Of a stretch of DNA of 64,000 bases, positions 17,393 to 26,564 are shown piece after piece. The position numbers and the translations under genes are program-made. Below the pieces are notes generated by a model that was given only the letters and a program-made list of their open reading frames with translations, made no database searches and was not told the DNA's origin. Position 1 is the first letter of the stretch. Every line of letters begins with the position of its first letter. Origin of the DNA: Candidatus Moraniibacteriota bacterium (GTDB taxonomy: Bacteria; Patescibacteriota; Minisyncoccia; Moranbacterales; GWC2-37-73); assembly GCA_035390125.1 (NCBI GenBank), contig DAOOTD010000001.1:116003-180002 (forward strand), written 5' to 3'.

Positions 17393-18016
17393 ATGCTTGT
17401 AATTTTTGATTGTGACGGAGTATTGCGGTCAGTGTCATGGGGAGCTCTTTATGAGGCTTATCTGGAAATTTGTAAATTTATCAACAAAAATCCGAGTGAT
17501 TTTTTTCAGGACTTTGAGGATTTCAGGAAATGGCTCAATTCTGACTGGCAGGAAAACCTGGAGCGCATGGGCATTTGTCGGGGAAGTGATACTTCGGAAA
17601 TAAACAAACTTTTTCACAGAGTCTATGATTCTCAAATACACCTGTTTCCCTGGGTGGGAAATGTGCTGGGAACTCTTTCTGCCAAACATCAGTTGGCCGT
17701 TCTTTCCGGCAGTTCTGCAAACAGTGTGTCTAAATCTCTAAACGGCAATGCCCATTTTTTTAAGATGATCATAGGTCATGAACACGTAAAGAATGTCAAA
17801 CCGCACCCCGAAGGAGTTCATCTGATCACAGAAGCTTTTCAGGCTGATCCTTCCAAAACGATTATTATAGGTGATTCAGATGCGGACATCTTGGCTGGCA
17901 AAAATGCCGGTATCAGGACTGCTGGAGTAACCTGGGGCATAACTCCTCCTGAAAAAATGAAATCTTGTGATCCGGATTTTCTATTCGAGCACCACAAGGA
18001 ATTGCTGTTAATTTAA
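17393..18016 (+). CDS. HAD-superfamily hydrolase (subfamily IA)
   Basis: Motif I VIFDCDGVL and a C-terminal GDSDADILAGKNAG motif IV. Confidence 0.8.
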   Translation: MLVIFDCDGVLRSVSWGALYEAYLEICKFINKNPSDFFQDFEDFRKWLNSDWQENLERMGICRGSDTSEINKLFHRVYDSQIHLFPWVGNVLGTLSAKHQLAVLSGSSANSVSKSLNGNAHFFKMIIGHEHVKNVKPHPEGVHLITEAFQADPSKTIIIGDSDADILAGKNAGIRTAGVTWGITPPEKMKSCDPDFLFEHHKELLLI

Positions 18017-18040
18017 GTTTTTAAAAAATGTTTTCCAAAC

Positions 18041-18075
18041 CCTTGGATCTCCGCAGATTTCCAAGGGTTTTTTCT
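18041..18075 (+). terminator. Rho-independent terminator
   Basis: AACCCTTGGA-loop-TCCAAGGGTT followed by T6. Confidence 0.65.
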
Positions 18076-18128
18076 TTTTGCCAAAGGTAATTTTTGGGAG
18101 TAAAATTAAATTGTTAAGTAACAAAATT

Positions 18129-18689
18129 ATGGATTTTGAAAAATTAAAAGAAAGTAAGCGACCAATAGAAAACCTACTTAATGTTGAAGTTGAAACCGAA
18201 CGGCTTAAATTAAAACCAGTGTCTTTGGAATATAAAGATATGATTTTTTCAGCATTTACTGATGAAGTAACAAAATTCATGTTTCCTTCAACGCCGAAGC
18301 AAATAGAAGATACTGAAAAATTTATCAAAGATTCAATAGATGAAATGGAAAAGGGTATAAATTTCTTAATAAGCATTTTCAATAAAGAGACAAATGAATT
18401 TTTAGGCGGGGGAGGAATTCATGATTTGAATACAAAAACTCCTGGATTGGGGATTTGGATAAAAAAATCAGCTCATGGAAACAAATATGGAAGAGAGGCG
18501 ATTACGGGACTTAAGGAGTGGGCTGATAAAAATTTAGACTACGAATATCTGTTGTATCCTGTTGTGAAAGAAAACATTGCCAGCAGAAAAATCCCAGAAT
18601 CACTGGGCGGAAAAGTAGTAAGAGAATTTATAAAGAAAAAACAAAATGGAGAAGATATGGAATTGGTAGAATATAGAATTTATAAGTAA
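18129..18689 (+). CDS. GNAT family N-acetyltransferase (RimL/RimJ-like)
   Basis: The ATG at 18129 follows the terminator; the track ORF starts inside the terminator. GNAT fold with GIWIKKSAHGNKYGREA. Confidence 0.7.
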   Translation: MDFEKLKESKRPIENLLNVEVETERLKLKPVSLEYKDMIFSAFTDEVTKFMFPSTPKQIEDTEKFIKDSIDEMEKGINFLISIFNKETNEFLGGGGIHDLNTKTPGLGIWIKKSAHGNKYGREAITGLKEWADKNLDYEYLLYPVVKENIASRKIPESLGGKVVREFIKKKQNGEDMELVEYRIYK

Positions 18690-18748
18690 CATTAAAAAAC
18701 GGGTGATTATAAAAGTAAAAAATAAATTATTTAATTTGATATAAATTT

Positions 18749-19453
18749 ATGGCCAAGAAGCAACTGTTACCATTTATAAAAAACGAAGACTTATATAAAC
18801 ATGTAAAAATGGTTTTAAATGTTGCAAAAAACGCAACAAATAATGCTGAAAAAAAAATTTATAGTAATGTCATAGATCCATTCTCTGCATTATTTGATGC
18901 ATCAAATCAAAACATATCATTATCTGAATGGATAAAACAAGAAAAATCGAGACAAACACAGAAAACACTCCAAAATGCTATAGGTGAATTTCATCAAAAT
19001 ATATTGGGGTCAATGTCTGGATGGGAAAATTTAAAAACTGGTTCAGTTTCAGATCTTTCTAATAAAAATAAAAAAATAATTGCCGAAGTAAAAAATAAAT
19101 ATAATACAACGAAAGGTAATCACAAGACGGCAATTTATGATGACTTCAAAAAATTACTTAAAAAAGATTACAAAGGATACGAAGCGTATTACGTAGAGAT
19201 TATACCTAAAGGACGAAATGTTTATAATAAGCCTTTTACACCTCCAGATAATCGAACGGGGAAAAGAAGACCAAAAAATATAAAAATCAAAATAATTGAT
19301 GGTAAAACTTTCTATGATTTAGCTAGCGGCTATCCTGAATCTCTAAAGCAATTATATTTAGCTCTTCCAACTGCAATTAGTAATGTATTGGGAAAAAAGG
19401 TAAATAAAGTAAAATCTAATGAATTCGTAGCTCTTTTCAAAAAAGCTTACTAA
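18749..19453 (+). CDS. Putative type II restriction endonuclease (partner of the adjacent m5C MTase)
   Basis: Sits immediately upstream of and co-directional with a C5 MTase. Candidate PD-(D/E)XK-like spacing SD...(12)...EVK. No family recognised by eye. Confidence 0.35.
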   Translation: MAKKQLLPFIKNEDLYKHVKMVLNVAKNATNNAEKKIYSNVIDPFSALFDASNQNISLSEWIKQEKSRQTQKTLQNAIGEFHQNILGSMSGWENLKTGSVSDLSNKNKKIIAEVKNKYNTTKGNHKTAIYDDFKKLLKKDYKGYEAYYVEIIPKGRNVYNKPFTPPDNRTGKRRPKNIKIKIIDGKTFYDLASGYPESLKQLYLALPTAISNVLGKKVNKVKSNEFVALFKKAY

Positions 19454-19469
19454 GAAACTATAAATTAAT

Positions 19470-19515
19470 AACCCTTGCATAATGCAAGGGTTATTTGTTA
19501 TAATAGAACTATAAC
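19470..19515 (+). promoter_or_regulatory. Hairpin (AACCCTTGCA-TAA-TGCAAGGGTT) plus palindrome GTTATAATAGAACTATAAC upstream of the MTase gene
   Basis: Read from the sequence. The palindrome is a candidate operator for the MTase N-terminal HTH domain. Confidence 0.45.
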
Positions 19516-19533
19516 AAATAATGAAAACAAAAA

Positions 19534-20775
19534 ATGGATCAAACAATGACAATTTCTGATGCAGCTATTCAATTGGGTGTTTCAGCAGACACAATAAGAC
19601 GATGGGACAAAAAAGGTCTCATTAAGGCTGATCGTTCAGACTTAAATTATCGCCTATTTAATATCGAAGAAATAAAGCGCATTTACAATAAGGTTTCAGG
19701 GACTTTTACTGCGAATAATTATAAAATACTTAAAGATAATAAAAAAACTAAATATACAACGATAGAACTTTTTGCAGGAACTGGTGGTACTGCTATTGGT
19801 TTTGAAAATGCAGGATTAAATCATGTATTGCTTAATGAATGGGATAAAGATGCAGTCGAAACTCTTAAAATCAATAAACCAAAATGGAATGTAATTGGTG
19901 GTGATATTGCGAACGTAGATTTTAAAGGAATTAAAGCGGACATAGTTCAGGGAGGGTTCCCTTGTCAAACATTTAGTTATGCTGGGAAAAAAATGGGTTT
20001 TGAAGACACAAGAGGAACGATGTTTTTTGAGTTTGCGCGATGCGTGAAAGAAGTTAAACCAAAAATTGCAGTTGGTGAAAATGTAAGAGGATTGCTCAGG
20101 CATGATAATGGTAAGACACTTAGTACGATGGTAAAAATAATGAAGGATCTTGGATATAAAGTGCAATACAGAGTTGTTCGATCACAATATTTAGATGTTC
20201 CTCAAAAAAGAGAGCGACTTATTATTATTGCCATTAGAAATGATTTGAAAATTCCGTTTATTTTTCCAAAAGAAAAAGATTACACAATTTCAATAAAAGA
20301 AGCCTTAAAAAATTGTCCGAAATCAGCAGGGCAAGAATATCCAGAAAAAAAGAAAAAAATACTGTCTCTTATTCCGCCCGGAGGATATTGGAGAGATTTA
20401 CCCGTAAAATTACAGAAGGAATATATGGGAGCAAGTTTTTATATGGGAGGTGGAAAAACTGGTATGGCGAGAAGATTATCATGGGATGAACCAAGTCTAA
20501 CACTTACTTGTAGCCCAGCACAAAAACAAACAGAAAGATGCCATCCTAAAGAAACACGTCCATTGACTGTTAGAGAATATGCGCGCATACAAACTTTTCC
20601 AGATAGCTGGAAATTTCAAGGATCAACTTCCTCACAATATAAACAAATAGGAAATGCGGTTCCATGCAATCTCGGTTATCATATAGGAAAATGTTTAATT
20701 GCGATGCTTGAAAATAAACCAGATTTAAAAACAATGGAAATTGTTTATCCAAGTAGTCAGAAGAGTTTATTTTAA
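19534..20775 (+). CDS. DNA (cytosine-5)-methyltransferase with N-terminal MerR-like HTH domain
   Basis: N-terminus ISDAAIQLGVSADTIRRWDKKGLI is a MerR-type HTH. Catalytic FPCQTFSYAGK (PCQ, motif IV), ENV (motif VI) and C-terminal QIGNAVP. Confidence 0.85.
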   Translation: MDQTMTISDAAIQLGVSADTIRRWDKKGLIKADRSDLNYRLFNIEEIKRIYNKVSGTFTANNYKILKDNKKTKYTTIELFAGTGGTAIGFENAGLNHVLLNEWDKDAVETLKINKPKWNVIGGDIANVDFKGIKADIVQGGFPCQTFSYAGKKMGFEDTRGTMFFEFARCVKEVKPKIAVGENVRGLLRHDNGKTLSTMVKIMKDLGYKVQYRVVRSQYLDVPQKRERLIIIAIRNDLKIPFIFPKEKDYTISIKEALKNCPKSAGQEYPEKKKKILSLIPPGGYWRDLPVKLQKEYMGASFYMGGGKTGMARRLSWDEPSLTLTCSPAQKQTERCHPKETRPLTVREYARIQTFPDSWKFQGSTSSQYKQIGNAVPCNLGYHIGKCLIAMLENKPDLKTMEIVYPSSQKSLF

Positions 20776-20839
20776 TACCCAATTGAAGCAAAAAGAGGCT
20801 GATTTGTGCTGTGGATAAATAGTGATGTATCAACACTTT

Positions 20840-20875
20840 ACAAATTTTACAGATGTGATATAATAGAAAAAAGGA
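20840..20875 (+). promoter_or_regulatory. Sigma70-like promoter with extended -10 (TTTACA-16-TGaTATAAT)
   Basis: Read from the sequence upstream of the ImmA-like gene. Confidence 0.45.
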
Positions 20876-20993
20876 AAGTGGAAAAATTGCCGCAATTCCA
20901 AACACAAAAACGAAAGAATTTTATTAATTAGTCCGGCATTCTGACAAATACCAAATCGAAACCAAAAAGAACTTAATATTTTTAAAGTCCAGT

Positions 20994-21596
20994 TTGATTT
21001 TAAAGAGGAAGTTGAAAAGTATGTTTGTGACAGCACATATTTTTCAATTTCCTTTTTTTTGTTTAAAAATATATTCCATGAACAATTATGAGATAATTAA
21101 TATCAAGGCAGAACATATCGCTTTAGATATTTATAAAATTACAAAAGAAATTCCATCATCTATAATCTCACTGGTTAAATGGGTAGAGGAAGCTTTTGAT
21201 GTAAAAATAGGTAGCATATCTTATACTGCAAATCTTAGTAATGGTCATTCCGGACTTGTTTATTTTGATCCAGCAACACAAACTTATAAGATTTGGTTAA
21301 ATGCAAAAGAACCAGAATTTAGGCAAAGATTTACTTTATGTCATGAAATTGCTCATATTATAAGAAATAAAGATTTAAAGTATGGATTATCTGATGGGGA
21401 TATATATTCCAAATGGGGAGAAGAAAGATTTTGTAATCGATTTGCAGCTGCATATTTAATGCCAGCGGAATTATTTATTCAGAAATGGAGGACAGTAAAG
21501 GAACCTATTTTTTTAAAGAAAGCAAGGCTGTCTAGTTTGTTTAAAGTATCTGGCGAGGCAGTATATATTAGGGCACAAGAATTAAAATTGGTTTAA
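20994..21596 (+). CDS. ImmA/IrrE-family (DUF955) zinc metallopeptidase-like protein
   Basis: HEIAHIIRN HExxH motif in the context typical of ImmA/IrrE. SD AGAGGAAG before the ATG. Confidence 0.55.
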   Translation: MILKRKLKSMFVTAHIFQFPFFCLKIYSMNNYEIINIKAEHIALDIYKITKEIPSSIISLVKWVEEAFDVKIGSISYTANLSNGHSGLVYFDPATQTYKIWLNAKEPEFRQRFTLCHEIAHIIRNKDLKYGLSDGDIYSKWGEERFCNRFAAAYLMPAELFIQKWRTVKEPIFLKKARLSSLFKVSGEAVYIRAQELKLV

Positions 21597-21628
21597 TTTT
21601 TTTATTCTAAAAAGGAGGTGAAAATAAA

Positions 21629-21784
21629 ATGACGAAGAAAAAAGCAAAAAAGAAAGTTGCAAAAAGTTCAGGCAGTTTTTTATTAAGGTCTTCAAGAAGA
21701 ATTAAAAGATATGTTTGCCCAAACTGTAATTCTGACAAGCCAACGGTACGAGGAAAATGTCCAATATGTGGATATAGGGGATAA
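21629..21784 (+). pseudogene. bL32-like zinc-ribbon small protein, apparently disrupted by a 1-nt frameshift
   Basis: Strong SD AAAGGAGGTGA. Frame 1 gives MTKKKAKKKVAKSSGSFLLRSSRRIKRYVC. A +1 shift at 21718-21722 (CCCAA) continues as PNCNSDKPTVRGKCPICGYRG and ends at TAA 21782. The combined sequence is a CxxC...CxxC protein resembling zinc-binding bL32. Confidence 0.35.
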
Positions 21785-21814
21785 TTTTTTAATTATAGAA
21801 AGGTAGGTGATAAA

Positions 21815-21931
21815 AATGGAAAAAAGATATAGAAGTGCTAAAACAGGGCTCTATGTTTCTGAGGAATATGCGAAAAAACATAAAGACACAACAGTTGCAG
21901 AAACGGATAAAAAGCCAAAAAAGAAAAAATA
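21815..21931 (+). CDS. Small Lys-rich ORF (38 aa) with strong SD
   Basis: SD AAAGGTAGGTGA before ATG, similar to the leader of the preceding small gene. MEKRYRSAKTGLYVSEEYAKKHKDTTVAETDKKPKKKK. Confidence 0.3.
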
Positions 21932-22091
21932 AAGGTCTCCTTGGAAAATGCGACTGAGTCGGACGCGTTTGATCGGCATAATTATTTGCTGAGATGACGG
22001 CCTAAAAGCGCAACCTTCTACAAAAACACCGCTATCGCGGTTGTTTTTGTTTGGTGATATAATCAAGGCAGGCAAAAATTAAAGTAATTTT

Positions 22092-22832
22092 ATGCAGAAT
22101 GATGAAGTAAAAAAAATTGTAAAAGAGAGTTATACAAAAATCGCCAAGGGCAGCGGGTATTCTTGCTGCGGGGCGAAAAAGGAACAGGAAAGAATTGCCG
22201 AAGAAATCGGCTATGCCAAAGAAGATATCGCCAAATTTTCCGAAGCGAATTTGGGACTGGGTTGCGGCAATCCGGTGGCTATGGCGGAAATGAAAGAAGG
22301 GGATGTTGTTTTGGATTTGGGATCAGGCGCGGGATTCGATTGTTTTCTGGCAGCCAGAAGAGTGAAAGAAACAGGCAAAGTGATTGGGGTGGATATGGTT
22401 CCGGAAATGGTGGACAAAGCCAAAGCGAACAGCGAAAAATATGGATACGAAAATGTTGAATTTAAACTAGGCGAGATTGAAAGCTTGCCGGTGGAAGATA
22501 ATTCGGTGGATATAATTATCAGCAACTGCGTGATTAATTTATCACCTGACAAAGATAAAGTTTTTGCCGAAGCTTATCGAGTTTTAAAAAGCGGAGGAAA
22601 AATGTTTGTTTCCGATATTGTTCTGCTTCAGGAATTGCCGGAAGAAATTAAAAATAATAAAGAACTTTTATCCGGCTGTGTAGCAGGAGCGCTTCTCAAA
22701 GATGACTATGTTTCAAAAATTAAAAATGCCGGTTTTGCAGTCGAAATACTTTCGGAAGATTTGGATATCAGCAAAAAACAATATTCCGGCATGCCGCTGG
22801 AAAGTTTGAAAATAAAAGCGATTAAAAATTAA
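22092..22832 (+). CDS. ArsM-like SAM-dependent methyltransferase
   Basis: Class I MTase motif [11 protein letters not shown]. Conserved Cys pairs YSCCGA and LGCGNP resemble the As(III)-binding cysteines of arsenite methyltransferases. Confidence 0.65.
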
Positions 22833-22835
22833 TAT

Positions 22836-23864
22836 ATGAGTAAAAAAATTTTTATTATTGTTTTGCCTTTACTGATACTGGCAATTTTTGCCGTTGGTTT
22901 TTTTTGGGGGCGCACTGAAATAATAAAAAAAGAAAATATTACGAAGCAGGAAAATGTTGTCCAAAAAGCAGCCGAAGAAGAGGTGCCGGTCAATGTGGTT
23001 CAGGAAACAGTCGTGCCGGAAATCCCTGTTATTATTCCGGAAGAAGAAAAAAGTGAAAATTCAGAAAATAAATTTACGTTTGCAAAACTCGGAGACACGC
23101 AAAGATTCAACGTGAACGATAAAAACGGAGCATTGCAGAAAGCTGTTGCAGAAATAAAAAAGCAAAACGTTGATTTTGTGGTTTCAACAGGAGACATCAT
23201 TTCCGGTTGCGGATCTGAATGCGCGGAAAAATTAAAAAACTGGAAAAATGTTATGGGTCCTTTGGCGGGGAAAATATATGTGGCTATGGGTAATCATGAC
23301 AGATCTGATGAAAATAAATCCGACAAAGTTTTTCAGGATTCTTTCAATTTTCCAACCAATGGTCCAAGCGGTTATTCTGAATTAGTCTATTCTTTCGACT
23401 ATAAAAATTCCCACTTCGTTTTTCTCAATAGTGAAAAACCGGAAGAAAATTTGATTGATTCCAAGCAGCGCAATTGGCTGGAAAGTGATTTGGCAGCGAC
23501 GCGGAAGGAGAATAAATTTATTTTTTTCCATGCCCCGGCCTATCCGCTCAGCAGCAAGATTGGTGAAAGTCTGGATGAGCATAAGAAAGACCGGGATGCG
23601 CTTTGGGCCATCTTCAAAAAATATAACGTGACGGCCGTTTTCAATGGCCATGAGCATATTCATAGTCGCAGAAATGTTGAGGGTATTTGGCAATTTGATT
23701 TTGGCAATACAGACTCTTTTGATCATGAATTGCCAAAATCAGGGGCGGATTTCTCTTATAGAGGACAAGCTTTCGGAATTGTGGAAGTTAATGGAAGAAA
23801 CATTAAGGTTAAAACCATTTCCGTGGATGGAAAAATCATCAATGAATTTTCTTTTTCCAAGTAA
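22836..23864 (+). CDS. Calcineurin-like metallophosphoesterase, membrane-anchored
   Basis: N-terminal TM. GDTQ...STGDII...MGNHD...GHEH metallophosphatase motifs. Confidence 0.75.
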   Translation: MSKKIFIIVLPLLILAIFAVGFFWGRTEIIKKENITKQENVVQKAAEEEVPVNVVQETVVPEIPVIIPEEEKSENSENKFTFAKLGDTQRFNVNDKNGALQKAVAEIKKQNVDFVVSTGDIISGCGSECAEKLKNWKNVMGPLAGKIYVAMGNHDRSDENKSDKVFQDSFNFPTNGPSGYSELVYSFDYKNSHFVFLNSEKPEENLIDSKQRNWLESDLAATRKENKFIFFHAPAYPLSSKIGESLDEHKKDRDALWAIFKKYNVTAVFNGHEHIHSRRNVEGIWQFDFGNTDSFDHELPKSGADFSYRGQAFGIVEVNGRNIKVKTISVDGKIINEFSFSK

Positions 23865-23984
23865 TTCCAAATTTTTTTGTTCATATATTTTGACAAGCAG
23901 GCAATACGGTGCTATTTTAATTGGTTCCTTTATAATTTATAAAAATAAAACAATTATCAATGGATAATGAAAGGGGGTTCCAGA

Positions 23985-24238
23985 TGCGATTAAAGGGGCT
24001 GTTTAAAAAAGAAACAAGCATGAATTCGAGGGCAATAGGCATGATGCACGAGGAATTCAATGGACTATTGGACAATGAGCGATTCATCCATTACGTGGGA
24101 ATGACAAAACCTTTTACACCTGGCGTCAGAGAATGCATGTTTACCGTGCAGTACAGGCATTTTAATCCGCAAAGCCAGCAGAGCGCGCTTTTTTTTATGC
24201 ACACGATCCGTTGGGCTGGTAAGTTAATTTTCCAATGA
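23985..24238 (+). CDS. Hypothetical protein
   Basis: SD AAGGGGG before ATG 23985 (the track ORF starts at 23960). Followed by a terminator. Confidence 0.4.
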
Positions 24239-24245
24239 AACGCCA

Positions 24246-24282
24246 AAAAGGCCGCATGACAAATTCAAAGCGGCCTTTTTCA
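24246..24282 (+). terminator. Rho-independent terminator
   Basis: GGCCGC-loop-GCGGCC hairpin followed by T5. Confidence 0.6.
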
Positions 24283-24340
24283 TTTGGTGCTATAATAAAA
24301 GCAGTGCAGAAATGATTAAATAATTAAATCGGGAAAAAAT

Positions 24341-24919
24341 ATGAAGCATAAAGATAAGTTTAACGAGATTTCTTTTATGACTGGCAAAAACAAAACTGCA
24401 CTTAGCCATTTAGGTGAGTGGTCCGTAGTTGATTTTGATAAGATGAAAGATAATAAAGGTAAGGTATATTATGCGAAAAAATTAAAAGACCTTCTATGTT
24501 ATCGGGAAAAAATTAAACGGCCGCTTTTTACTAGAATTGGAAACTTCGATGTCTGCTATTATTTACCGGTTATTTTATATAATCCAAAAACCATGCAGTC
24601 CATAATGACTTTAGCTGTGGCCGATACCGGTGCTGATTCCTCTTCTTTCAGCAGTGAAATAGCTGAAGCAATCGGAATTGATTGGAAAAAAGGGAAAAAG
24701 GTCAAAGGTTTCGAAAGCGAAAGGCTCATTCCATTTTACGCTTATCGAGTCAAGATTCTCATGAGTATTTTAAATGATAAAAATATTTATGAAGAAAAAA
24801 TTGATTTTACAGAAAAAAAGCATGCGGTTAATATAGTAGGTTATATTGGTTTTTTTAATCATTATGAGGTTGTTTTTCATCCCAAGTACAGAATGAAATA
24901 TAAGTTTATAAATAAATAA
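24341..24919 (+). CDS. Retropepsin-like (clan AA) aspartic peptidase-like protein
   Basis: LAVADTGADSSSF matches the hydrophobic-hydrophobic-D-T/S-G-A motif of retropepsin-like aspartyl proteases. Confidence 0.45.
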   Translation: MKHKDKFNEISFMTGKNKTALSHLGEWSVVDFDKMKDNKGKVYYAKKLKDLLCYREKIKRPLFTRIGNFDVCYYLPVILYNPKTMQSIMTLAVADTGADSSSFSSEIAEAIGIDWKKGKKVKGFESERLIPFYAYRVKILMSILNDKNIYEEKIDFTEKKHAVNIVGYIGFFNHYEVVFHPKYRMKYKFINK

Positions 24920-24946
24920 TTAATTATTTACTCATTTTTAAGGTAT

Positions 24947-25696
24947 ATGTCTGAATATTATAATCCAAACAGGGATGCTTCCTGGAACTACGGAGGAAAA
25001 AATTGGAAATTGAGCCGATCAAAAATCGATTTGTTTCTGGAATGTCCGAGATGTTTTTATCTGGACAACAAACTGGGTGTGAAACGAGTGCCAGGATTTC
25101 CGTTTTCCATAAACAGTGCAGTGGACTATCTTTTGAAGCAGGAATTCGATTCCTATCGGGTAAAAAATGAGCAGCATCCTCTGCAGAAAGAATATGGCAT
25201 TGATGCCCGGCCGATGTCGCATGCCGAACTTGATGAGTGGCGGAGAAATTTCGGCGGCGTGAAATATCTGCATGAACCGACCGAACTTCTGGTTACAGGC
25301 GCGATTGACGATTTGTGGATCAATGGTAAAGAAGAATACATTGTCGTTGACTACAAGGCGACAGCCAAGGATGAAGCAGTCAAAGCTCTGGACAAGGAAT
25401 GGCAAAATGGCTACAAGCGCCAAATGGAAATCTATCAGTGGCTCTTGCGTCAGAATGGCCTGAAAGTTTCCGATACCGGCTATTTTGTTTATTGCACAGG
25501 TAAAATGGACCGACAGGCTTTTGATAAAAAAATAGAGTTTGATATTAATTTGATTGAACATAAGGGCGATGATTCCTGGGTGGAAAAAACGCTTTTTGAA
25601 ATCAAAAAATGCCTGGACAGCGATCGGATTCCAAAATCAGGAGCGGATTGCGACCATTGTGCCTATTGGAACGCCAGAAATAAAATAGAAAAATAA
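24947..25696 (+). CDS. Cas4-like PD-(D/E)XK nuclease with Cys cluster
   Basis: N-terminal CPRCFY, D...EYIVVDYK (D/ExK), a QxxxY motif (RQMEIYQW) and C-terminal CDHCAYW. Same architecture as Cas4/RecB-family Fe-S nucleases. No CRISPR array nearby. Confidence 0.6.
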   Translation: MSEYYNPNRDASWNYGGKNWKLSRSKIDLFLECPRCFYLDNKLGVKRVPGFPFSINSAVDYLLKQEFDSYRVKNEQHPLQKEYGIDARPMSHAELDEWRRNFGGVKYLHEPTELLVTGAIDDLWINGKEEYIVVDYKATAKDEAVKALDKEWQNGYKRQMEIYQWLLRQNGLKVSDTGYFVYCTGKMDRQAFDKKIEFDINLIEHKGDDSWVEKTLFEIKKCLDSDRIPKSGADCDHCAYWNARNKIEK

Positions 25697-25711
25697 TTAA
25701 TAAATAAAAAT

Positions 25712-26140
25712 ATGAAATATAAAAATTTCAAAGTTTTCTTTCTAATTTTTTCAGTGGCAGGATTTTTATTTTCAGGATATATGAGTTGGATTAAAATGTT
25801 TTCTTCTGTCTGTGCTTTCGGAGAAACATGCCCGCTGTTTCTGGGATTCCCAGCTTGTTATTTCGGATTTATAATGTTCTGCTTATTGCTTATTTTTTCT
25901 TTGCTTCTGTTTTTCAATAAATGGAATGTCGAATCTTTGTCAAAATCACTATTCTTTTCTTCATTTGCCGGTGTAATTTTTTCTGGATATTTTTCGATAG
26001 GGGAATTGCCTTTATTTTTGCAGAATGGACCAAGCGCATACTTTTTCGGCCTTCCAACTTGTGTCATGGGTTTTTTATTTTTTATTGCTATTTTTATCGT
26101 TTCCATAATTTTTAGAAAAGCTCTTTTAGTTTCTGCTTAA
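25712..26140 (+). CDS. Small polytopic membrane protein with conserved Cys pairs
   Basis: 4 TM helices. CAFGETC within a TM loop region. No family assigned. Confidence 0.45.
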   Translation: MKYKNFKVFFLIFSVAGFLFSGYMSWIKMFSSVCAFGETCPLFLGFPACYFGFIMFCLLLIFSLLLFFNKWNVESLSKSLFFSSFAGVIFSGYFSIGELPLFLQNGPSAYFFGLPTCVMGFLFFIAIFIVSIIFRKALLVSA

Positions 26141-26159: not shown

Positions 26160-26564
26160 ATGAACAACGCATACAATTGGTATTCAACTTTAATAAAGCC
26201 ATCCTGGTCTCCGCCCAGCTGGATTTTCGGTCCCGTCTGGACAGTTTTATATATCATCATAGCGTTCACATTCGGGACGGTTTTTTTGAAAACTTTCACC
26301 GGCAAATTGCCTTGGATGGTGGCTTTGCCCTTTGCGCTCAATCTGGTTTTCAATTTTGCTTTCACTCCTTTACAGTTCGGACTCAAAAATAACTATCTGG
26401 CTGCGGGCGACATTCTGCTGGTTTTGGGAACTCTTATTTGGGCGCTGATCGCTATCTGGCCGCATTATCGCTGGATTGTCTATGCTAATGTTCCTTATTT
26501 TCTCTGGGTTTCTTTTGCTACAGTCTTGCAGCTGACAATAACTTATCTGAATTTAGGCAAATAA
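26160..26564 (+). CDS. tspO: TspO/MBR (tryptophan-rich sensory protein) family
   Basis: WYSTLIKPSWSPPSWIFGPVWTVLY is the N-terminal TspO signature. 5 TM helices. Confidence 0.8.
   Translation: MNNAYNWYSTLIKPSWSPPSWIFGPVWTVLYIIIAFTFGTVFLKTFTGKLPWMVALPFALNLVFNFAFTPLQFGLKNNYLAAGDILLVLGTLIWALIAIWPHYRWIVYANVPYFLWVSFATVLQLTITYLNLGK

What the first reader, a model, noticed from the sequence alone, without database searches (positions are those of the whole stretch)
18749..21596. Accessory island: putative REase, HTH-fused m5C methyltransferase with palindromic operator, and a lone ImmA/IrrE-like metallopeptidase
The MTase carries an N-terminal MerR-like HTH. A perfect palindrome GTTATA-N7-TATAAC sits 20 nt upstream of its start, after an inter-gene hairpin. 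This is the arrangement used by SsoII-type MTases, whose N-terminal domain autoregulates the R-M operon. The upstream 234-aa ORF has a D...(12)...EVK spacing compatible with a PD-(D/E)XK REase. Immediately downstream, behind a strong promoter with an extended -10, is an HExxH ImmA/IrrE-family protein with no cognate Xre repressor. This suggests a defence island or mobile remnant where the peptidase may act on the MTase HTH or on another target.
Basis: partly seen in the sequence, partly recalled or inferred. Interest (0 to 1): 0.6.

Follow-up and report, generated by a model that had tools for sequence, protein, structure and literature searches.

The report
Self-regulating restriction system plus orphan peptidase
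This stretch of a Candidatus Moranbacteria genome holds an ordinary restriction-modification defence system whose methylase carries a built-in DNA-binding domain that probably switches off its own gene, followed by a separately transcribed regulatory protease that has lost its usual repressor partner.

Summary
ORF 18749-19453 is a full-length Eco47II-family (PD-(D/E)XK) restriction endonuclease. ORF 19534-20775 is an m5C methyltransferase with an N-terminal MerR-type winged helix, a ~20-aa linker and an HhaI-like catalytic domain.

That palindrome occurs only in this genome. The likely operator is the "inter-gene hairpin" at 19467-19495. Its dyad, TAACCnTTGC-N4/5-GCAAnGGTTA, is sequence-conserved in front of the MerR-methylase in 45 genomes from several phyla. 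It sits next to an extended -10 whatever restriction-enzyme family or orientation accompanies the methylase. This works like SsoII/Ecl18kI, but the DNA-binding fold differs (MerR-type, not 434/Xre) and the genes here are tandem.

The peptidase (true start 21078, 172 aa) is ImmA/CapP-like and under purifying selection. Its more distant relatives overlap a 109-aa Xre repressor gene. This gene and its three closest relatives lack Xre and instead carry a conserved promoter and a ~200-nt leader with a terminator-like hairpin. Three of these four lie just downstream of m5C R-M cassettes of different types. None of 80 other MerR-methylase loci has the peptidase, so cleavage of the methylase HTH is unsupported.

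Overall this is a modest variant of known systems.

The parts
18749..19453 (+). Restriction endonuclease, Eco47II family (PD-(D/E)XK); predicted catalytic D102, E113, K115
   Evidence: PF09553 E=3.2e-59 over profile positions 1-201 of 202. PADLOC REase_II E=6.8e-56. D102/E113/K115 invariant in 51/51 homologues. The family is assigned to PD-(D/E)XK in PMC3424549.
19467..19495 (.). Conserved dyad O1, AATAACCCTTGCAT-A-ATGCAAGGGTTATT (core TAACC 19469-19473 / GGTTA 19489-19493). Proposed operator of the methylase HTH. It contains the -35-like TTGCAT (19475-19480). Transcribed from the R gene, it also forms a terminator-like hairpin.
   Evidence: The pattern TAACCnTTGC-N4/5-GCAAnGGTTA (<=2 mismatches) occurs 45 times in 789 kb of related loci: 44 within 200 nt upstream of the methylase start, 1 at 272 nt, none elsewhere. 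14 of the loci have no Eco47II-type R and 6 have R convergent downstream. Half-site positions 7 and 8 are non-complementary in 20/45 and 15/45 loci. RNA fold.
19496..19504 (+). Extended -10 (TGTTATAAT) of the methylase promoter, 18 nt after TTGCAT
   Evidence: Read from the sequence. A TANNNT hexamer, mostly TATAAT or TATACT, lies 0-4 nt after the dyad in 36/45 loci.
19491..19521 (.). It overlaps the -10 and the start of the M leader. It is specific to this genome and its role is unresolved.
   Evidence: Absent from L005-L084 and from L115.
19534..20775 (+). m5C DNA methyltransferase with N-terminal MerR-type winged helix (res 1-55), linker (56-74) and catalytic domain (75-413). Predicted target GGNCC.
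   Evidence: Pfam/NCBIfam matches. PDB sequence matches to M.HhaI and M.HaeIII, and RacA for residues 8-50. AF2 models with a coil linker. The N-terminal domain model matches only MerR-family DNA-binding domains (NmlR, MtaN, RacA, BldC, GlnR, Xis). Specificity is inferred from the three partner REase families.
20837..20864 (+). Promoter of the peptidase unit, TTTACA-16-TATAAT with TG
   Evidence: 11/12 matches. Equivalent TTGACA-17-TATCAT promoters in L090 and L115.
20865..21077 (+). ~210-nt non-coding leader ending in a 23-bp hairpin (21002-21057) followed by a U-run, 12 nt before the start codon. No Shine-Dalgarno sequence in front of ATG 21078.
   Evidence: Hairpin found (I1). Folding z-score -3.35. 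The hairpin is conserved in L090 and L115, with 6 of 30 pairs changed on both sides. The L090/L115 leaders are 76% identical although dS=0.84 in the adjacent gene. No Xre remnant and no conserved small ORF.
21078..21596 (+). ImmA/IrrE/CapP-like zinc metallopeptidase (M78 domain only, 172 aa) without an Xre partner
   Evidence: PF06114 E=5e-19. PADLOC CapP E=2.7e-20. IrrE match in PDB with HExxH and Glu aligned. dN/dS 0.13-0.18 against L089, L090 and L115. Partner Xre present in relatives only.
21629..21932 (+). Two small ORFs probably co-transcribed with the peptidase: a 51-aa Lys-rich zinc-ribbon protein (21629-21784) and a 38-aa ORF (21816-21932). A terminator-like site lies at 22028-22050.
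   Evidence: Neither ORF is conserved next to peptidase relatives.

Best explanation
The region holds two independent units.

Unit 1 (18749-20775) is a complete Type II restriction-modification cassette. It has an Eco47II-family PD-(D/E)XK endonuclease followed, in tandem, by an m5C methyltransferase that most likely modifies GGNCC. The methyltransferase is a regulatory MTase: a MerR-type winged helix (res 1-55) is tethered by a flexible ~20-aa linker to an HhaI-like catalytic domain.

The inferred mechanism is as follows. The methylase gene has its own promoter (TTGCAT, 18 nt, TGTTATAAT). Two methylase molecules bind, through their N-terminal domains, the dyad TAACCCTTGC-N5-GCAAGGGTTA (19467-19495). 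The dyad covers the -35 and spacer, so the enzyme represses its own synthesis once enough has accumulated. Read as RNA from the upstream R gene, the same sequence is a strong hairpin followed by a U-rich tract. It probably also ends the R transcript, keeping R and M as separate transcription units. It may be a weak auxiliary site, since it repeats the outer GTTAT/ATAAC of the dyad.

Unit 2 (20837-~22050) is transcribed on its own from a strong extended -10 promoter. It has a ~210-nt non-coding leader with a terminator-like hairpin, then a 172-aa ImmA/CapP-like metallopeptidase and two small ORFs. The peptidase belongs to a Moranbacteria family that normally works with an overlapping 109-aa Xre repressor (ImmR/ImmA or CapH/CapP logic: the protease cleaves the repressor on a stress signal). 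In this sub-lineage the Xre gene is gone, but the protease is still under purifying selection. It most likely acts in trans on a repressor encoded elsewhere. Its position next to R-M cassettes most likely reflects co-location in a variable defence region, not a shared mechanism.

Shown: gene identities, domain architecture, conservation and position of the dyad, absence of Xre, purifying selection, leader conservation. Inferred: HTH-dyad binding, repression, GGNCC specificity, peptidase substrate.
For: Identities.

Architecture: AF2 of the full protein gives wHTH 1-55, coil 56-74, MTase from 75. The N-terminal model (pLDDT 76-87 over residues 1-58) matches only MerR-family DNA-binding domains, at rmsd 2.2-2.5 A over 55-61 columns.

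Dyad:
- It is found in 45 loci from Patescibacteria, Desulfovibrionaceae, Bdellovibrionota, an alphaproteobacterium and Halothiobacillus. Half-site positions 3, 5, 6 and 11 are invariant.
- Positions 7 and 8 are freely non-complementary, so selection acts on sequence, not on base pairing.
- All 45 matches in 789 kb lie upstream of the methylase, 44 within 200 nt of its start.
- It stays with the methylase when the partner endonuclease is Eco47II-type (tandem or convergent), TdeIII-type or EcoO109I-type, including divergent arrangements.
- A -10 hexamer follows at a fixed short offset.
- An HTH-less homologue lineage (L078/L079) has no dyad.
- A more distant gammaproteobacterial branch keeps a TAACC...GGTT dyad in another spacing next to the -10.
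- There is no GGNCC site in 18000-22000, so control by promoter methylation is excluded.

Specificity: Eco47II, TdeIII and EcoO109I all have a GGNCC core (my knowledge of REBASE; Eco47II-GGNCC also in PMC10305163).

Peptidase:
- 0/80 co-occurrence with MerR-methylase loci.
- Xre partner with a 4-nt overlap in relatives of 48-62% identity.
- No Xre in the window or in the leader.
- dN/dS 0.13-0.18.
- Conserved promoter, leader and hairpin in L090 and L115, which carry different R-M cassettes upstream.

Known precedent for regulatory MTases: PMC3874152, PMC12707154, PMC6100179.
Against: There is no experimental evidence of binding. The dyad-HTH link rests on co-occurrence and position alone.

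The dyad also has every property of an intrinsic terminator for the R gene in the tandem loci, so part of its conservation could serve that role.

How R expression is timed relative to M in the tandem arrangement is not explained. The only other half-site-like sequence is a 1-mismatch copy at 18760-18769, inside the first codons of R, and that is at chance level.

GGNCC is not depleted in the window (59 observed, 63 expected), so the sequence gives no independent sign of the specificity or of an active endonuclease.

Three of the four Xre-less peptidase genes lie directly behind m5C R-M cassettes. That is more than a pure-coincidence view would predict, although the sample is tiny and not phylogenetically independent.
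Confidence: 0.7

Rival explanations
1. One reading: the palindrome GTTATA-N7-TATAAC (19497-19515) is the operator bound by the methylase HTH, and the upstream hairpin is only a terminator.
For: It is a perfect inverted repeat (12-nt arms) overlapping the -10 and transcription start, which is an ideal place for a repressor, and it is very unlikely by chance. Its arms repeat the GTTAT/ATAAC ends of the conserved dyad.
Against: It is absent from every other locus, including those with 83-88% identical methylases and nearly identical HTH sequences (L005-L008, L115). A conserved DNA-binding domain should have a conserved site, and the hairpin dyad fills that role in 45 loci.
Confidence: 0.12
2. The conserved dyad is purely an RNA element (the R-gene terminator or a 5' structure) and the HTH has another target or no regulatory role.
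For: It folds into a 12-14-bp hairpin followed by UUAUUUGUU, and the terminator scan flags the site on the minus strand. In 25 of 45 loci it lies directly behind a co-directional R gene.
Against: It is present in 14 loci where the neighbour is a different REase family, sometimes divergent, and in 6 where R is convergent downstream, so no R transcript reaches it. Its primary sequence is conserved across phyla while two stem positions are mismatched in a third to nearly half of the loci. Terminators normally show the opposite pattern. It keeps a fixed offset to a -10 box.
Confidence: 0.1
3. Functional coupling: the Xre-less peptidase has adopted the R-M system. It would cleave the MerR HTH or linker off the methylase (or another R-M regulator) on a stress signal such as single-stranded DNA, changing the R/M balance.
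For: The Xre partner is missing in the window and its three closest relatives (L089, L090, L115). In three of these four the peptidase lies behind an m5C R-M cassette; the region upstream of L089 is not known beyond 785 nt. The peptidase with its promoter and leader is conserved while the cassette upstream differs, which could mean selection for adjacency. A further relative (L116) has a Dam-type methylase upstream of Xre-M78. CapH/CapP-type pairs are known regulators of defence operons (10.1101/2022.04.27.489752, PMC13228613).
Against: 0 of 80 MerR-methylase loci in other genomes have the peptidase. The methylase linker in the window and L115 is the same as in loci without the peptidase. The L090 methylase has no HTH. 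The peptidase lacks the HTH and GAF domains with which CapP/IrrE sense single-stranded DNA: it is 172 aa and matches CapP profile positions 31-153 of 242. It has its own promoter, and a terminator-like hairpin separates it from the R-M.
Confidence: 0.1
4. The peptidase is a decaying remnant of an Xre-ImmA module disrupted when the R-M cassette inserted.
For: Xre is absent. The gap between the methylase and the peptidase (302 nt) is about the size of an Xre gene (330 nt). There is no Shine-Dalgarno sequence, and a terminator-like hairpin lies in front of the ORF.
Against: The ORF is intact with all catalytic residues in four diverged genomes. dN/dS is 0.13-0.18 with dS 0.8-2.2. The leader is itself conserved well above neutral expectation and shows no similarity to Xre genes.
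Confidence: 0.08

Closest known systems
SsoII / Ecl18kI (also EcoRII, MspI, ScrFIA) regulatory m5C methyltransferases
   Same: An m5C MTase carries an N-terminal DNA-binding domain of ~55 aa joined by a ~15-20-aa flexible linker to an HhaI-like catalytic domain. A palindromic site in its own promoter region gives autorepression (PMC3978073, PMC6100179, PMC2760811, PMC12707154). The domain boundaries are almost identical: 1-55/56-71/72-379 in M.SsoII against 1-55/56-74/75-413 here.
   Different: The SsoII domain is 434-repressor/Xre-like, whereas this one is a MerR-type winged helix. The SsoII site is a 15-bp palindrome (AGGACAAATTGTCCT) between divergent R and M genes and works by promoter competition. 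Here the dyad is 25-29 bp, R and M are tandem, and the dyad doubles as a hairpin after R. SsoII targets CCNGG; the predicted target here is GGNCC.
Eco47II / Sau96I-type GGNCC restriction-modification systems
   Same: The endonuclease is a full-length member of Pfam RE_Eco47II with the conserved D...ExK residues. It is paired with an m5C methylase.
   Different: Some Eco47II-type systems have a methylase without any HTH, for example M. hominis DCM4 at 337 aa (PMC10305163). The MerR-fused methylase also pairs with the unrelated TdeIII and EcoO109I endonuclease families.
Minimal MerR-like DNA-binding proteins (RacA N-terminal domain, BldC, GlnR/TnrA, Xis-type excisionases)
   Same: A winged-helix domain of ~50-60 aa without the long MerR coiled coil or an effector domain. 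These are the best structural and sequence matches.
   Different: Those are free-standing proteins or are fused to other modules. Here the domain is fused to an enzyme, and dimerisation would have to be DNA-mediated, as proposed for M.SsoII.
ImmR/ImmA (ICEBs1, phage phi105), DdrO/IrrE (Deinococcus) and CapH/CapP (CBASS and other defence operons)
   Same: An M78 zinc metallopeptidase with HExxH and a downstream Glu. Its size is about that of ImmA. Relatives in sister genomes have the canonical overlapping Xre gene, which hits the CapH and C-protein models.
   Different: There is no Xre partner here. The HTH and GAF domains of CapP/IrrE are absent. The gene lies downstream of and co-directional with the defence genes, not upstream and divergent as described for capH/capP. 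The Xre gene is replaced by a ~200-nt leader with a terminator-like hairpin.

Membership tests
Type II restriction endonuclease, Eco47II family (PF09553; PD-(D/E)XK superfamily) | Full-length match to the family profile above the curated cut-off | tested here: met
   200.3 bits against a cut-off of 25.9, profile positions 1-201 of 202.
Type II restriction endonuclease, Eco47II family (PF09553; PD-(D/E)XK superfamily) | Conserved acidic/Lys catalytic triad D...(D/E)xK | tested here: met
   D102, E113 and K115 invariant in 51/51 homologues.
Type II restriction endonuclease, Eco47II family (PF09553; PD-(D/E)XK superfamily) | Cleavage at GGNCC, blocked by the cognate methylation | not testable with these tools
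   Needs enzyme assays. GGNCC is not depleted in the window.
C5 cytosine DNA methyltransferase (PF00145 / TIGR00675) | Profile match including motif I (FxGxG) and the motif IV PC catalytic cysteine | tested here: met
   286.9 bits; ELFAGTGG at residues 78-85 and GFPCQ at 141-145, both invariant in 32 homologues.
SsoII-like regulatory methyltransferases | N-terminal DNA-binding domain plus flexible linker fused to a C5 MTase | tested here: met
SsoII-like regulatory methyltransferases | Regulatory domain homologous to the 434 repressor / Xre (HTH_3) fold | tested here: not met
   The Pfam hits are MerR, MerR_1 and HTH_17, not HTH_3. The fold search returns only MerR-family domains. The SsoII domain is described as 434-repressor-like in PMC3978073.
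SsoII-like regulatory methyltransferases | [quoted passage not shown] | tested here: not met
   R and M are tandem in the window. Some family members with EcoO109I-type R are divergent (L007, L010, L016).
SsoII-like regulatory methyltransferases | Sequence-specific binding of the MTase to the operator, with autorepression | not testable with these tools
   Only comparative evidence is available: 45 loci with the conserved dyad at the promoter.
MerR family transcription regulators (canonical) | N-terminal winged helix-turn-helix | tested here: met
   PF00376 at 44 bits against a cut-off of 28.2. Structural matches to NmlR, MtaN, CueR, CadR and BmrR DNA-binding domains.
MerR family transcription regulators (canonical) | Long C-terminal coiled-coil dimerisation helix and an effector-binding region | tested here: not met
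   MerR_1 matches only profile positions 1-46 of 69. The catalytic domain starts at residue ~75 after a coil linker.
MerR family transcription regulators (canonical) | Operator dyad inside an over-long (19-20 bp) -35/-10 spacer, with activation by DNA distortion | tested here: inconclusive
   The dyad does lie between and over the -35 and spacer, but the spacer is 18 nt and there is an extended -10. That fits simple repression better.
ImmA/IrrE/CapP metallopeptidases (Peptidase_M78, PF06114) | M78 profile match with HExxH and a third-ligand Glu | tested here: met
   68.7 bits against a cut-off of 22. HEIAH and GEERFCN align to IrrE H82/E83/H86/E113.
ImmA/IrrE/CapP metallopeptidases (Peptidase_M78, PF06114) | Adjacent cognate Xre-type repressor that is the substrate | tested here: not met
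   None in the 64-kb window or in the leader. It is present in relatives.
CapH/CapP defence-operon regulators | CapP with peptidase, HTH and GAF domains, sensing single-stranded DNA | tested here: not met
   172 aa, matching CapP profile positions 31-153 of 242 only. The domain description is from 10.1101/2022.04.27.489752.
CapH/CapP defence-operon regulators | Located upstream of, and divergent from, the regulated defence operon | tested here: not met
   Downstream and co-directional here and in L090, L115 and L116.

The most novel reading that the evidence does not exclude
A small clade of Xre-less ImmA-like peptidases in Moranbacteria has become a dedicated accessory of m5C restriction-modification cassettes. 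Each is kept with its own promoter and an attenuator-like leader directly behind interchangeable R-M modules. On a damage signal, the peptidase would cleave the R-M system's own regulator (here the MerR domain or linker of the methylase) and reset the methylase/endonuclease balance. That would be the first protease-controlled R-M system.
Probability: 0.08. Interest if true: 0.7.

Novelty: new variant of a known kind. Interest (0 to 1): 0.35.

Why it matters
Regulatory methyltransferases have been studied almost only in the SsoII/Ecl18kI/EcoRII group.

This locus belongs to a very large, cross-phylum family: thousands of homologues, more than 70% identical across CPR phyla. In this family a different DNA-binding fold (MerR-type) has been fused to a GGNCC-type m5C methylase. 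The comparison made here gives the family a concrete, testable operator: TAACCnTTGC-N4/5-GCAAnGGTTA next to the -10. The methylase-plus-operator module is the stable unit, while three unrelated endonuclease families are swapped around it. That is a clean example of convergent evolution of R-M autoregulation and of modular exchange of restriction enzymes.

The orphan peptidase matters less. It is a curiosity that could point to crosstalk between ImmA/CapP-type stress proteases and R-M systems, but the present evidence favours simple co-location.

Tried and rejected
- Rfam scan of 18600-22200: only sub-threshold noise (PyrG leader 35 bits against 65; miRNA models).
- A decayed Xre gene between the methylase and the peptidase: tblastn and low-stringency blastn of the family's Xre genes against the window and the leaders found nothing.
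- A conserved small ORF in the leader: none is shared between the window, L090 and L115.
- Avoidance of GGNCC as a sign of specificity: not seen, O/E 0.94.
- Flanking direct repeats, tRNA genes or integrases as island borders: none.
- An empty site in relatives: synteny is poor. One contig with an 87%-identical GNAT goes straight to MazE-like + TspO, and another relative has a different neighbourhood, so the borders are only suggestive.
- Extra operator half-sites near the R or peptidase promoters: only chance-level 1-mismatch hits.
- Viral contigs: no close peptidase relative (27% at best) and only a few methylase relatives.
- A peptidase-specific methylase linker: rejected.
- Literature search for MerR-fused m5C methylases: nothing found in the held library.
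- Small ORFs downstream of the peptidase: not conserved and no informative Pfam hits.

Full report
Origin and layout. The window matches a 278-kb metagenome contig assigned by public records to Candidatus Moranbacteria (Patescibacteria/CPR). Genes between 15 and 26 kb all run on the + strand. In order they are: HAD hydrolase, GNAT acetyltransferase (ends 18689), the 234-aa ORF (18749-19453), the 413-aa methylase (19534-20775), a 302-nt gap, the peptidase (21078-21596), a 51-aa zinc-ribbon ORF, a 38-aa ORF, then an ArsM-like SAM methyltransferase. G+C falls to 0.29-0.34 between 18 and 22 kb, against 0.35-0.41 on either side. There are no tRNA genes and no flanking repeats.

The 234-aa protein matches Pfam RE_Eco47II end to end (E=3e-59) and a PADLOC Type II REase model. 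The family has no solved structure but was placed in the PD-(D/E)XK superfamily by Steczkiewicz et al. (PMC3424549). The methylase has MerR HTH matches at residues 5-50 and a C5 methylase domain at 74-388. Both inverted repeats in the R-M gap are perfect: 14-nt arms at 19467-19495 and 12-nt arms at 19491-19521. Repeats this long occur at five places in the window, against 0.1 per shuffle. The promoter in front of the peptidase (TTTACA-16-TGATATAAT, 20837-20864) is the best consensus match in the region. The peptidase is a Peptidase_M78 protein with HEIAH and the third-ligand Glu aligned to IrrE. Its conserved start is ATG 21078 (172 aa), as in all 54 homologues found.

The methylase family. 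The MerR + C5-methylase architecture is not peculiar to this genome. 119 of the 120 best protein clusters (72-100% identity) carry it. In one-genome-per-species contigs it extends to cultured Providencia, Pseudidiomarina, Thiothrix and Methylovulum at 52-57% identity, with the match starting at residues 1-6. An AlphaFold model of the whole protein (pTM 0.80) shows helices and a beta-hairpin wing at residues 7-55, a coil at 56-74 and the catalytic domain from residue 75. The N-terminal 77 residues modelled alone (pLDDT 76-87 up to residue ~58, below 50 for 60-75) match only MerR-family DNA-binding domains in the PDB: NmlR, MtaN, RacA, BldC, GlnR/TnrA, CueR/CadR and Xis, at rmsd 2.2-2.5 A. The long MerR coiled coil and effector domain are absent. 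The domain layout is almost identical to M.SsoII (1-55 / 56-71 / 72-379; PMC3978073, PMC6100179), but the SsoII regulatory domain is homologous to the 434 repressor. This is therefore an analogue of the SsoII solution, not a member of that family.

Which palindrome is the operator. I collected 80 loci from different species that encode a relative of the methylase and compared the DNA in front of the gene. It is missing even from L115, whose methylase is 88% identical, although the HTH is nearly unchanged there.

The hairpin, in contrast, is conserved as sequence. (A/G)TAACCnTTGC-N4/5-GCAAnGGTTA(T/C), with at most 2 mismatches in the 16 specified positions, precedes the methylase in 45 loci. 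These come from Patescibacteria of many classes, a Desulfovibrionaceae chromosome, a Bdellovibrionota MAG, an alphaproteobacterial MAG and Halothiobacillus. Searching all 789 kb of these loci for the pattern gives 45 hits. 44 end within 200 nt of the methylase start, one ends at 272 nt, and none lies elsewhere.

- The dyad follows the methylase, not the endonuclease. In 25 loci an Eco47II-type R lies upstream in tandem. In 6 it is convergent downstream. In 14 there is no Eco47II homologue at all.
- In those 14 loci the neighbour is an endonuclease of another family, RE_TdeIII or RE_EcoO109I, on either strand.
- Half-site positions 3, 5, 6 and 11 never vary. Positions 7 and 8 vary and are non-complementary between the arms in 20 and 15 of 45 loci. 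That is the pattern of a protein-binding site, not of an RNA stem.
- A -10 hexamer (TATAAT or TATACT in 20 loci) follows 0-4 nt after the dyad in 36 of 45 loci.
- In the window the geometry is TTGCAT (19475-19480, inside the left half-site), an 18-nt spacer, then TGTTATAAT (19496-19504). A bound protein would therefore cover the -35 and the spacer.
- One HTH-less methylase lineage at similar distance (L078/L079) has an ordinary promoter and no dyad.
- The more distant gammaproteobacterial branch has TAACCATGTATAAGGTTG just after a TATAAT, so the outer TAACC/GGTT is kept in another spacing.

In the tandem loci the same sequence, transcribed from R, folds into a strong hairpin followed by UUAUUUGUU. 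It probably also terminates the R transcript, so the two roles are compatible. There is no GGNCC in 18000-22000, so control by methylation of the promoter (the CfrBI type) is excluded.

The second palindrome remains unexplained. It overlaps the -10 and the likely transcription start, and it repeats the GTTAT/ATAAC ends of the dyad, so it may be an auxiliary low-affinity site. Another sub-group (L021-L031, L049) has an unrelated 8-nt-arm palindrome, ATGATAGA-N7-TCTATCAT, between the -10 and the ATG, with compensatory changes in L026. Some lineage-specific second element in the leader may therefore be a recurrent feature.

Specificity. The three endonuclease families found with this methylase recognise GGNCC (Eco47II, TdeIII) or RGGNCCY (EcoO109I). 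This is my knowledge of REBASE; Eco47II-homologue-GGNCC is also stated in PMC10305163. The methylase therefore very probably modifies GGNCC. The window itself gives no support from site avoidance (O/E 0.94).

The peptidase. Its best defence-library match is CapP (E=2.7e-20), followed by RosmerTA RmrA models. It is only 172 aa, about the size of ImmA, and covers CapP profile positions 31-153 of 242. It therefore lacks the HTH and GAF parts that sense single-stranded DNA in CapP and IrrE.

Relatives of 48-62% identity in other Moranbacteria and Patescibacteria are all preceded by a 108-110-aa Xre gene, whose stop overlaps the peptidase start in several (L085-L088, L091). That Xre protein hits the CapH and C-protein models. 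Several of these pairs sit in a conserved recA-rodZ-ftsK...rpoC/rpoB neighbourhood.

The window gene and its three closest relatives (L089 74%, L090 65%, L115 63%) have no Xre. They are not pseudogenes: the catalytic residues are intact and dN/dS is 0.13-0.18 at dS 0.8-2.2. In place of Xre they have a promoter, a ~200-nt leader and a 23-bp hairpin with a U-run just before an ATG that has no Shine-Dalgarno sequence. The leader is 76% identical between L090 and L115 although synonymous sites in the adjacent gene have diverged by 0.84 substitutions per site. The hairpin keeps pairing through changes on both sides at 6 of 30 pairs. The leader shows no trace of an Xre gene and no shared small ORF. 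I read it as an attenuator-like leader that limits expression of a protease that no longer has an autorepressor. That reading is inference.

Is the peptidase tied to the R-M system? Three points favour a link.
- L115 has the same order (Eco47II-type R, MerR-methylase, ~310-nt gap, peptidase) but different downstream genes, and its R is only 31% identical to the window's R.
- L090 has an AbrB/MazE-like gene, an HhaI-like methylase, R.HinP1I and Vsr in front of the same promoter-leader-peptidase unit.
- L116 has a Dam-type methylase in front of Xre-peptidase.

Four points argue against a link.
- None of the 80 other MerR-methylase loci has the peptidase, the zinc-ribbon ORF or the 38-aa ORF within 5 kb.
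- The methylase linker is the same with or without the peptidase.
- The L090 methylase has no HTH.
- The unit has its own promoter.

The simplest reading is that the peptidase unit marks a variable spot where R-M cassettes come and go. The functional reading stays open at low probability.

Island status. The R-M module is clearly mobile on evolutionary time scales. Methylases are more than 70% identical across CPR phyla and in unrelated Proteobacteria, and they pair with interchangeable endonucleases. In a contig whose GNAT is 87% identical, GNAT is followed directly by a MazE-like gene and TspO. In the window TspO lies at 26160-26564. The ~7.5 kb from 18.7 to 26.1 kb may therefore be accessory, but another relative has a different neighbourhood again, so the borders are not defined. 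Close relatives of the peptidase are not found on viral contigs.

Verdict. It needs three corrections: the operator, the family assignment (it works like SsoII but is a MerR-type variant in a tandem layout), and the proposed peptidase-methylase link, which is unsupported. I found no description of MerR-fused regulatory methylases or of this dyad in the searchable literature. I therefore rate it a new variant of a known kind, of moderate-to-low interest.

Noticed in passing
L085 291-6522; also L086, L088, L091, L095, L117: In several Moranbacteria the Xre + M78 peptidase pair lies in a conserved neighbourhood: recA, rodZ-like HTH gene, ftsK, Xre, M78, then rpoC/rpoB. It looks like a DdrO/IrrE- or ImmR/ImmA-type damage-response regulator next to recA in CPR bacteria.
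   Followed up: partly
L006 4022-4915, L019 4034-4849, L038 3894-4724, L039 254-1042 (RE_TdeIII); L007 4132-4878, L012 1941-2804, L015 4181-4903, L018 4083-4934 (RE_EcoO109I): The same MerR-methylase-plus-dyad module is paired with three unrelated endonuclease families that share a GGNCC core, in tandem, divergent or convergent layouts. Within the Eco47II type, the window and L115 endonucleases are only 31% identical while their methylases are 88% identical.
   Followed up: yes
L057-L083 (e.g. L060 4964-4980): The gammaproteobacterial branch of the methylase (51-59% identity) has a different conserved element, TATAAT-N2-3-TAACCATGTATAAGGTTG, roughly 5-30 nt before the mapped start of the methylase match. 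It keeps the outer TAACC/GGTT in a shorter spacing and lies downstream of the -10.
   Followed up: partly
L021-L031, L049 (between the -10 and the methylase ATG): A second, unrelated palindrome, ATGATAGA-N7-TCTATCAT, lies in the methylase 5' leader of one sub-group. L026 carries compensatory changes (ACGCTAGG/CTTAGCGT). It may be the counterpart of the window's own second palindrome.
   Followed up: no
L009, L012-L014, L016, L028, L033, L034, L037: In many family members the -10 box ends only about 7 nt before the methylase ATG, which implies leaderless methylase mRNAs.
   Followed up: no
window 1-64000: GGCC is the most under-represented 4-bp palindrome in the window (100 observed, 155 expected, O/E 0.64), whereas GGNCC is not depleted. 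This may reflect a HaeIII-type system elsewhere in the genome or in its past.
   Followed up: no
window 18760-18769: A single one-mismatch copy of the operator half-site (GCAACTGTTA) lies 11 nt inside the R gene. Such hits are at chance frequency in the window, so its meaning is doubtful.
   Followed up: partly
L093 4293-4814, L117 5876-6328: The peptidase of this lineage has an in-frame stop (…LKKA*LASVF…), giving a 150-aa product that lacks the last ~23 residues. The sequence after the stop is still conserved.
   Followed up: no
window 19493-19508 and 20853-20868: The -10 regions of the methylase promoter and the peptidase promoter are 14/16 identical (ATTTGTTATAATAGAA against ATGTGATATAATAGAA). 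This is not seen in L115 and is probably coincidence.
   Followed up: partly
window 22092-26140: Further genes that may belong to the same variable segment: an ArsM-like SAM methyltransferase, a metallophosphoesterase, a 192-aa protein with no Pfam match (24341-24919), and a PD-(D/E)XK/Cas4-like nuclease (24947-25696).
   Followed up: no
window 21629-21784: A 51-aa protein with a Lys-rich N-terminus and a CxxC...CxxC zinc ribbon, preceded by a strong Shine-Dalgarno sequence, lies directly after the peptidase. It is not found next to peptidase relatives. It could be a small nucleic-acid-binding partner, or unrelated.
   Followed up: partly
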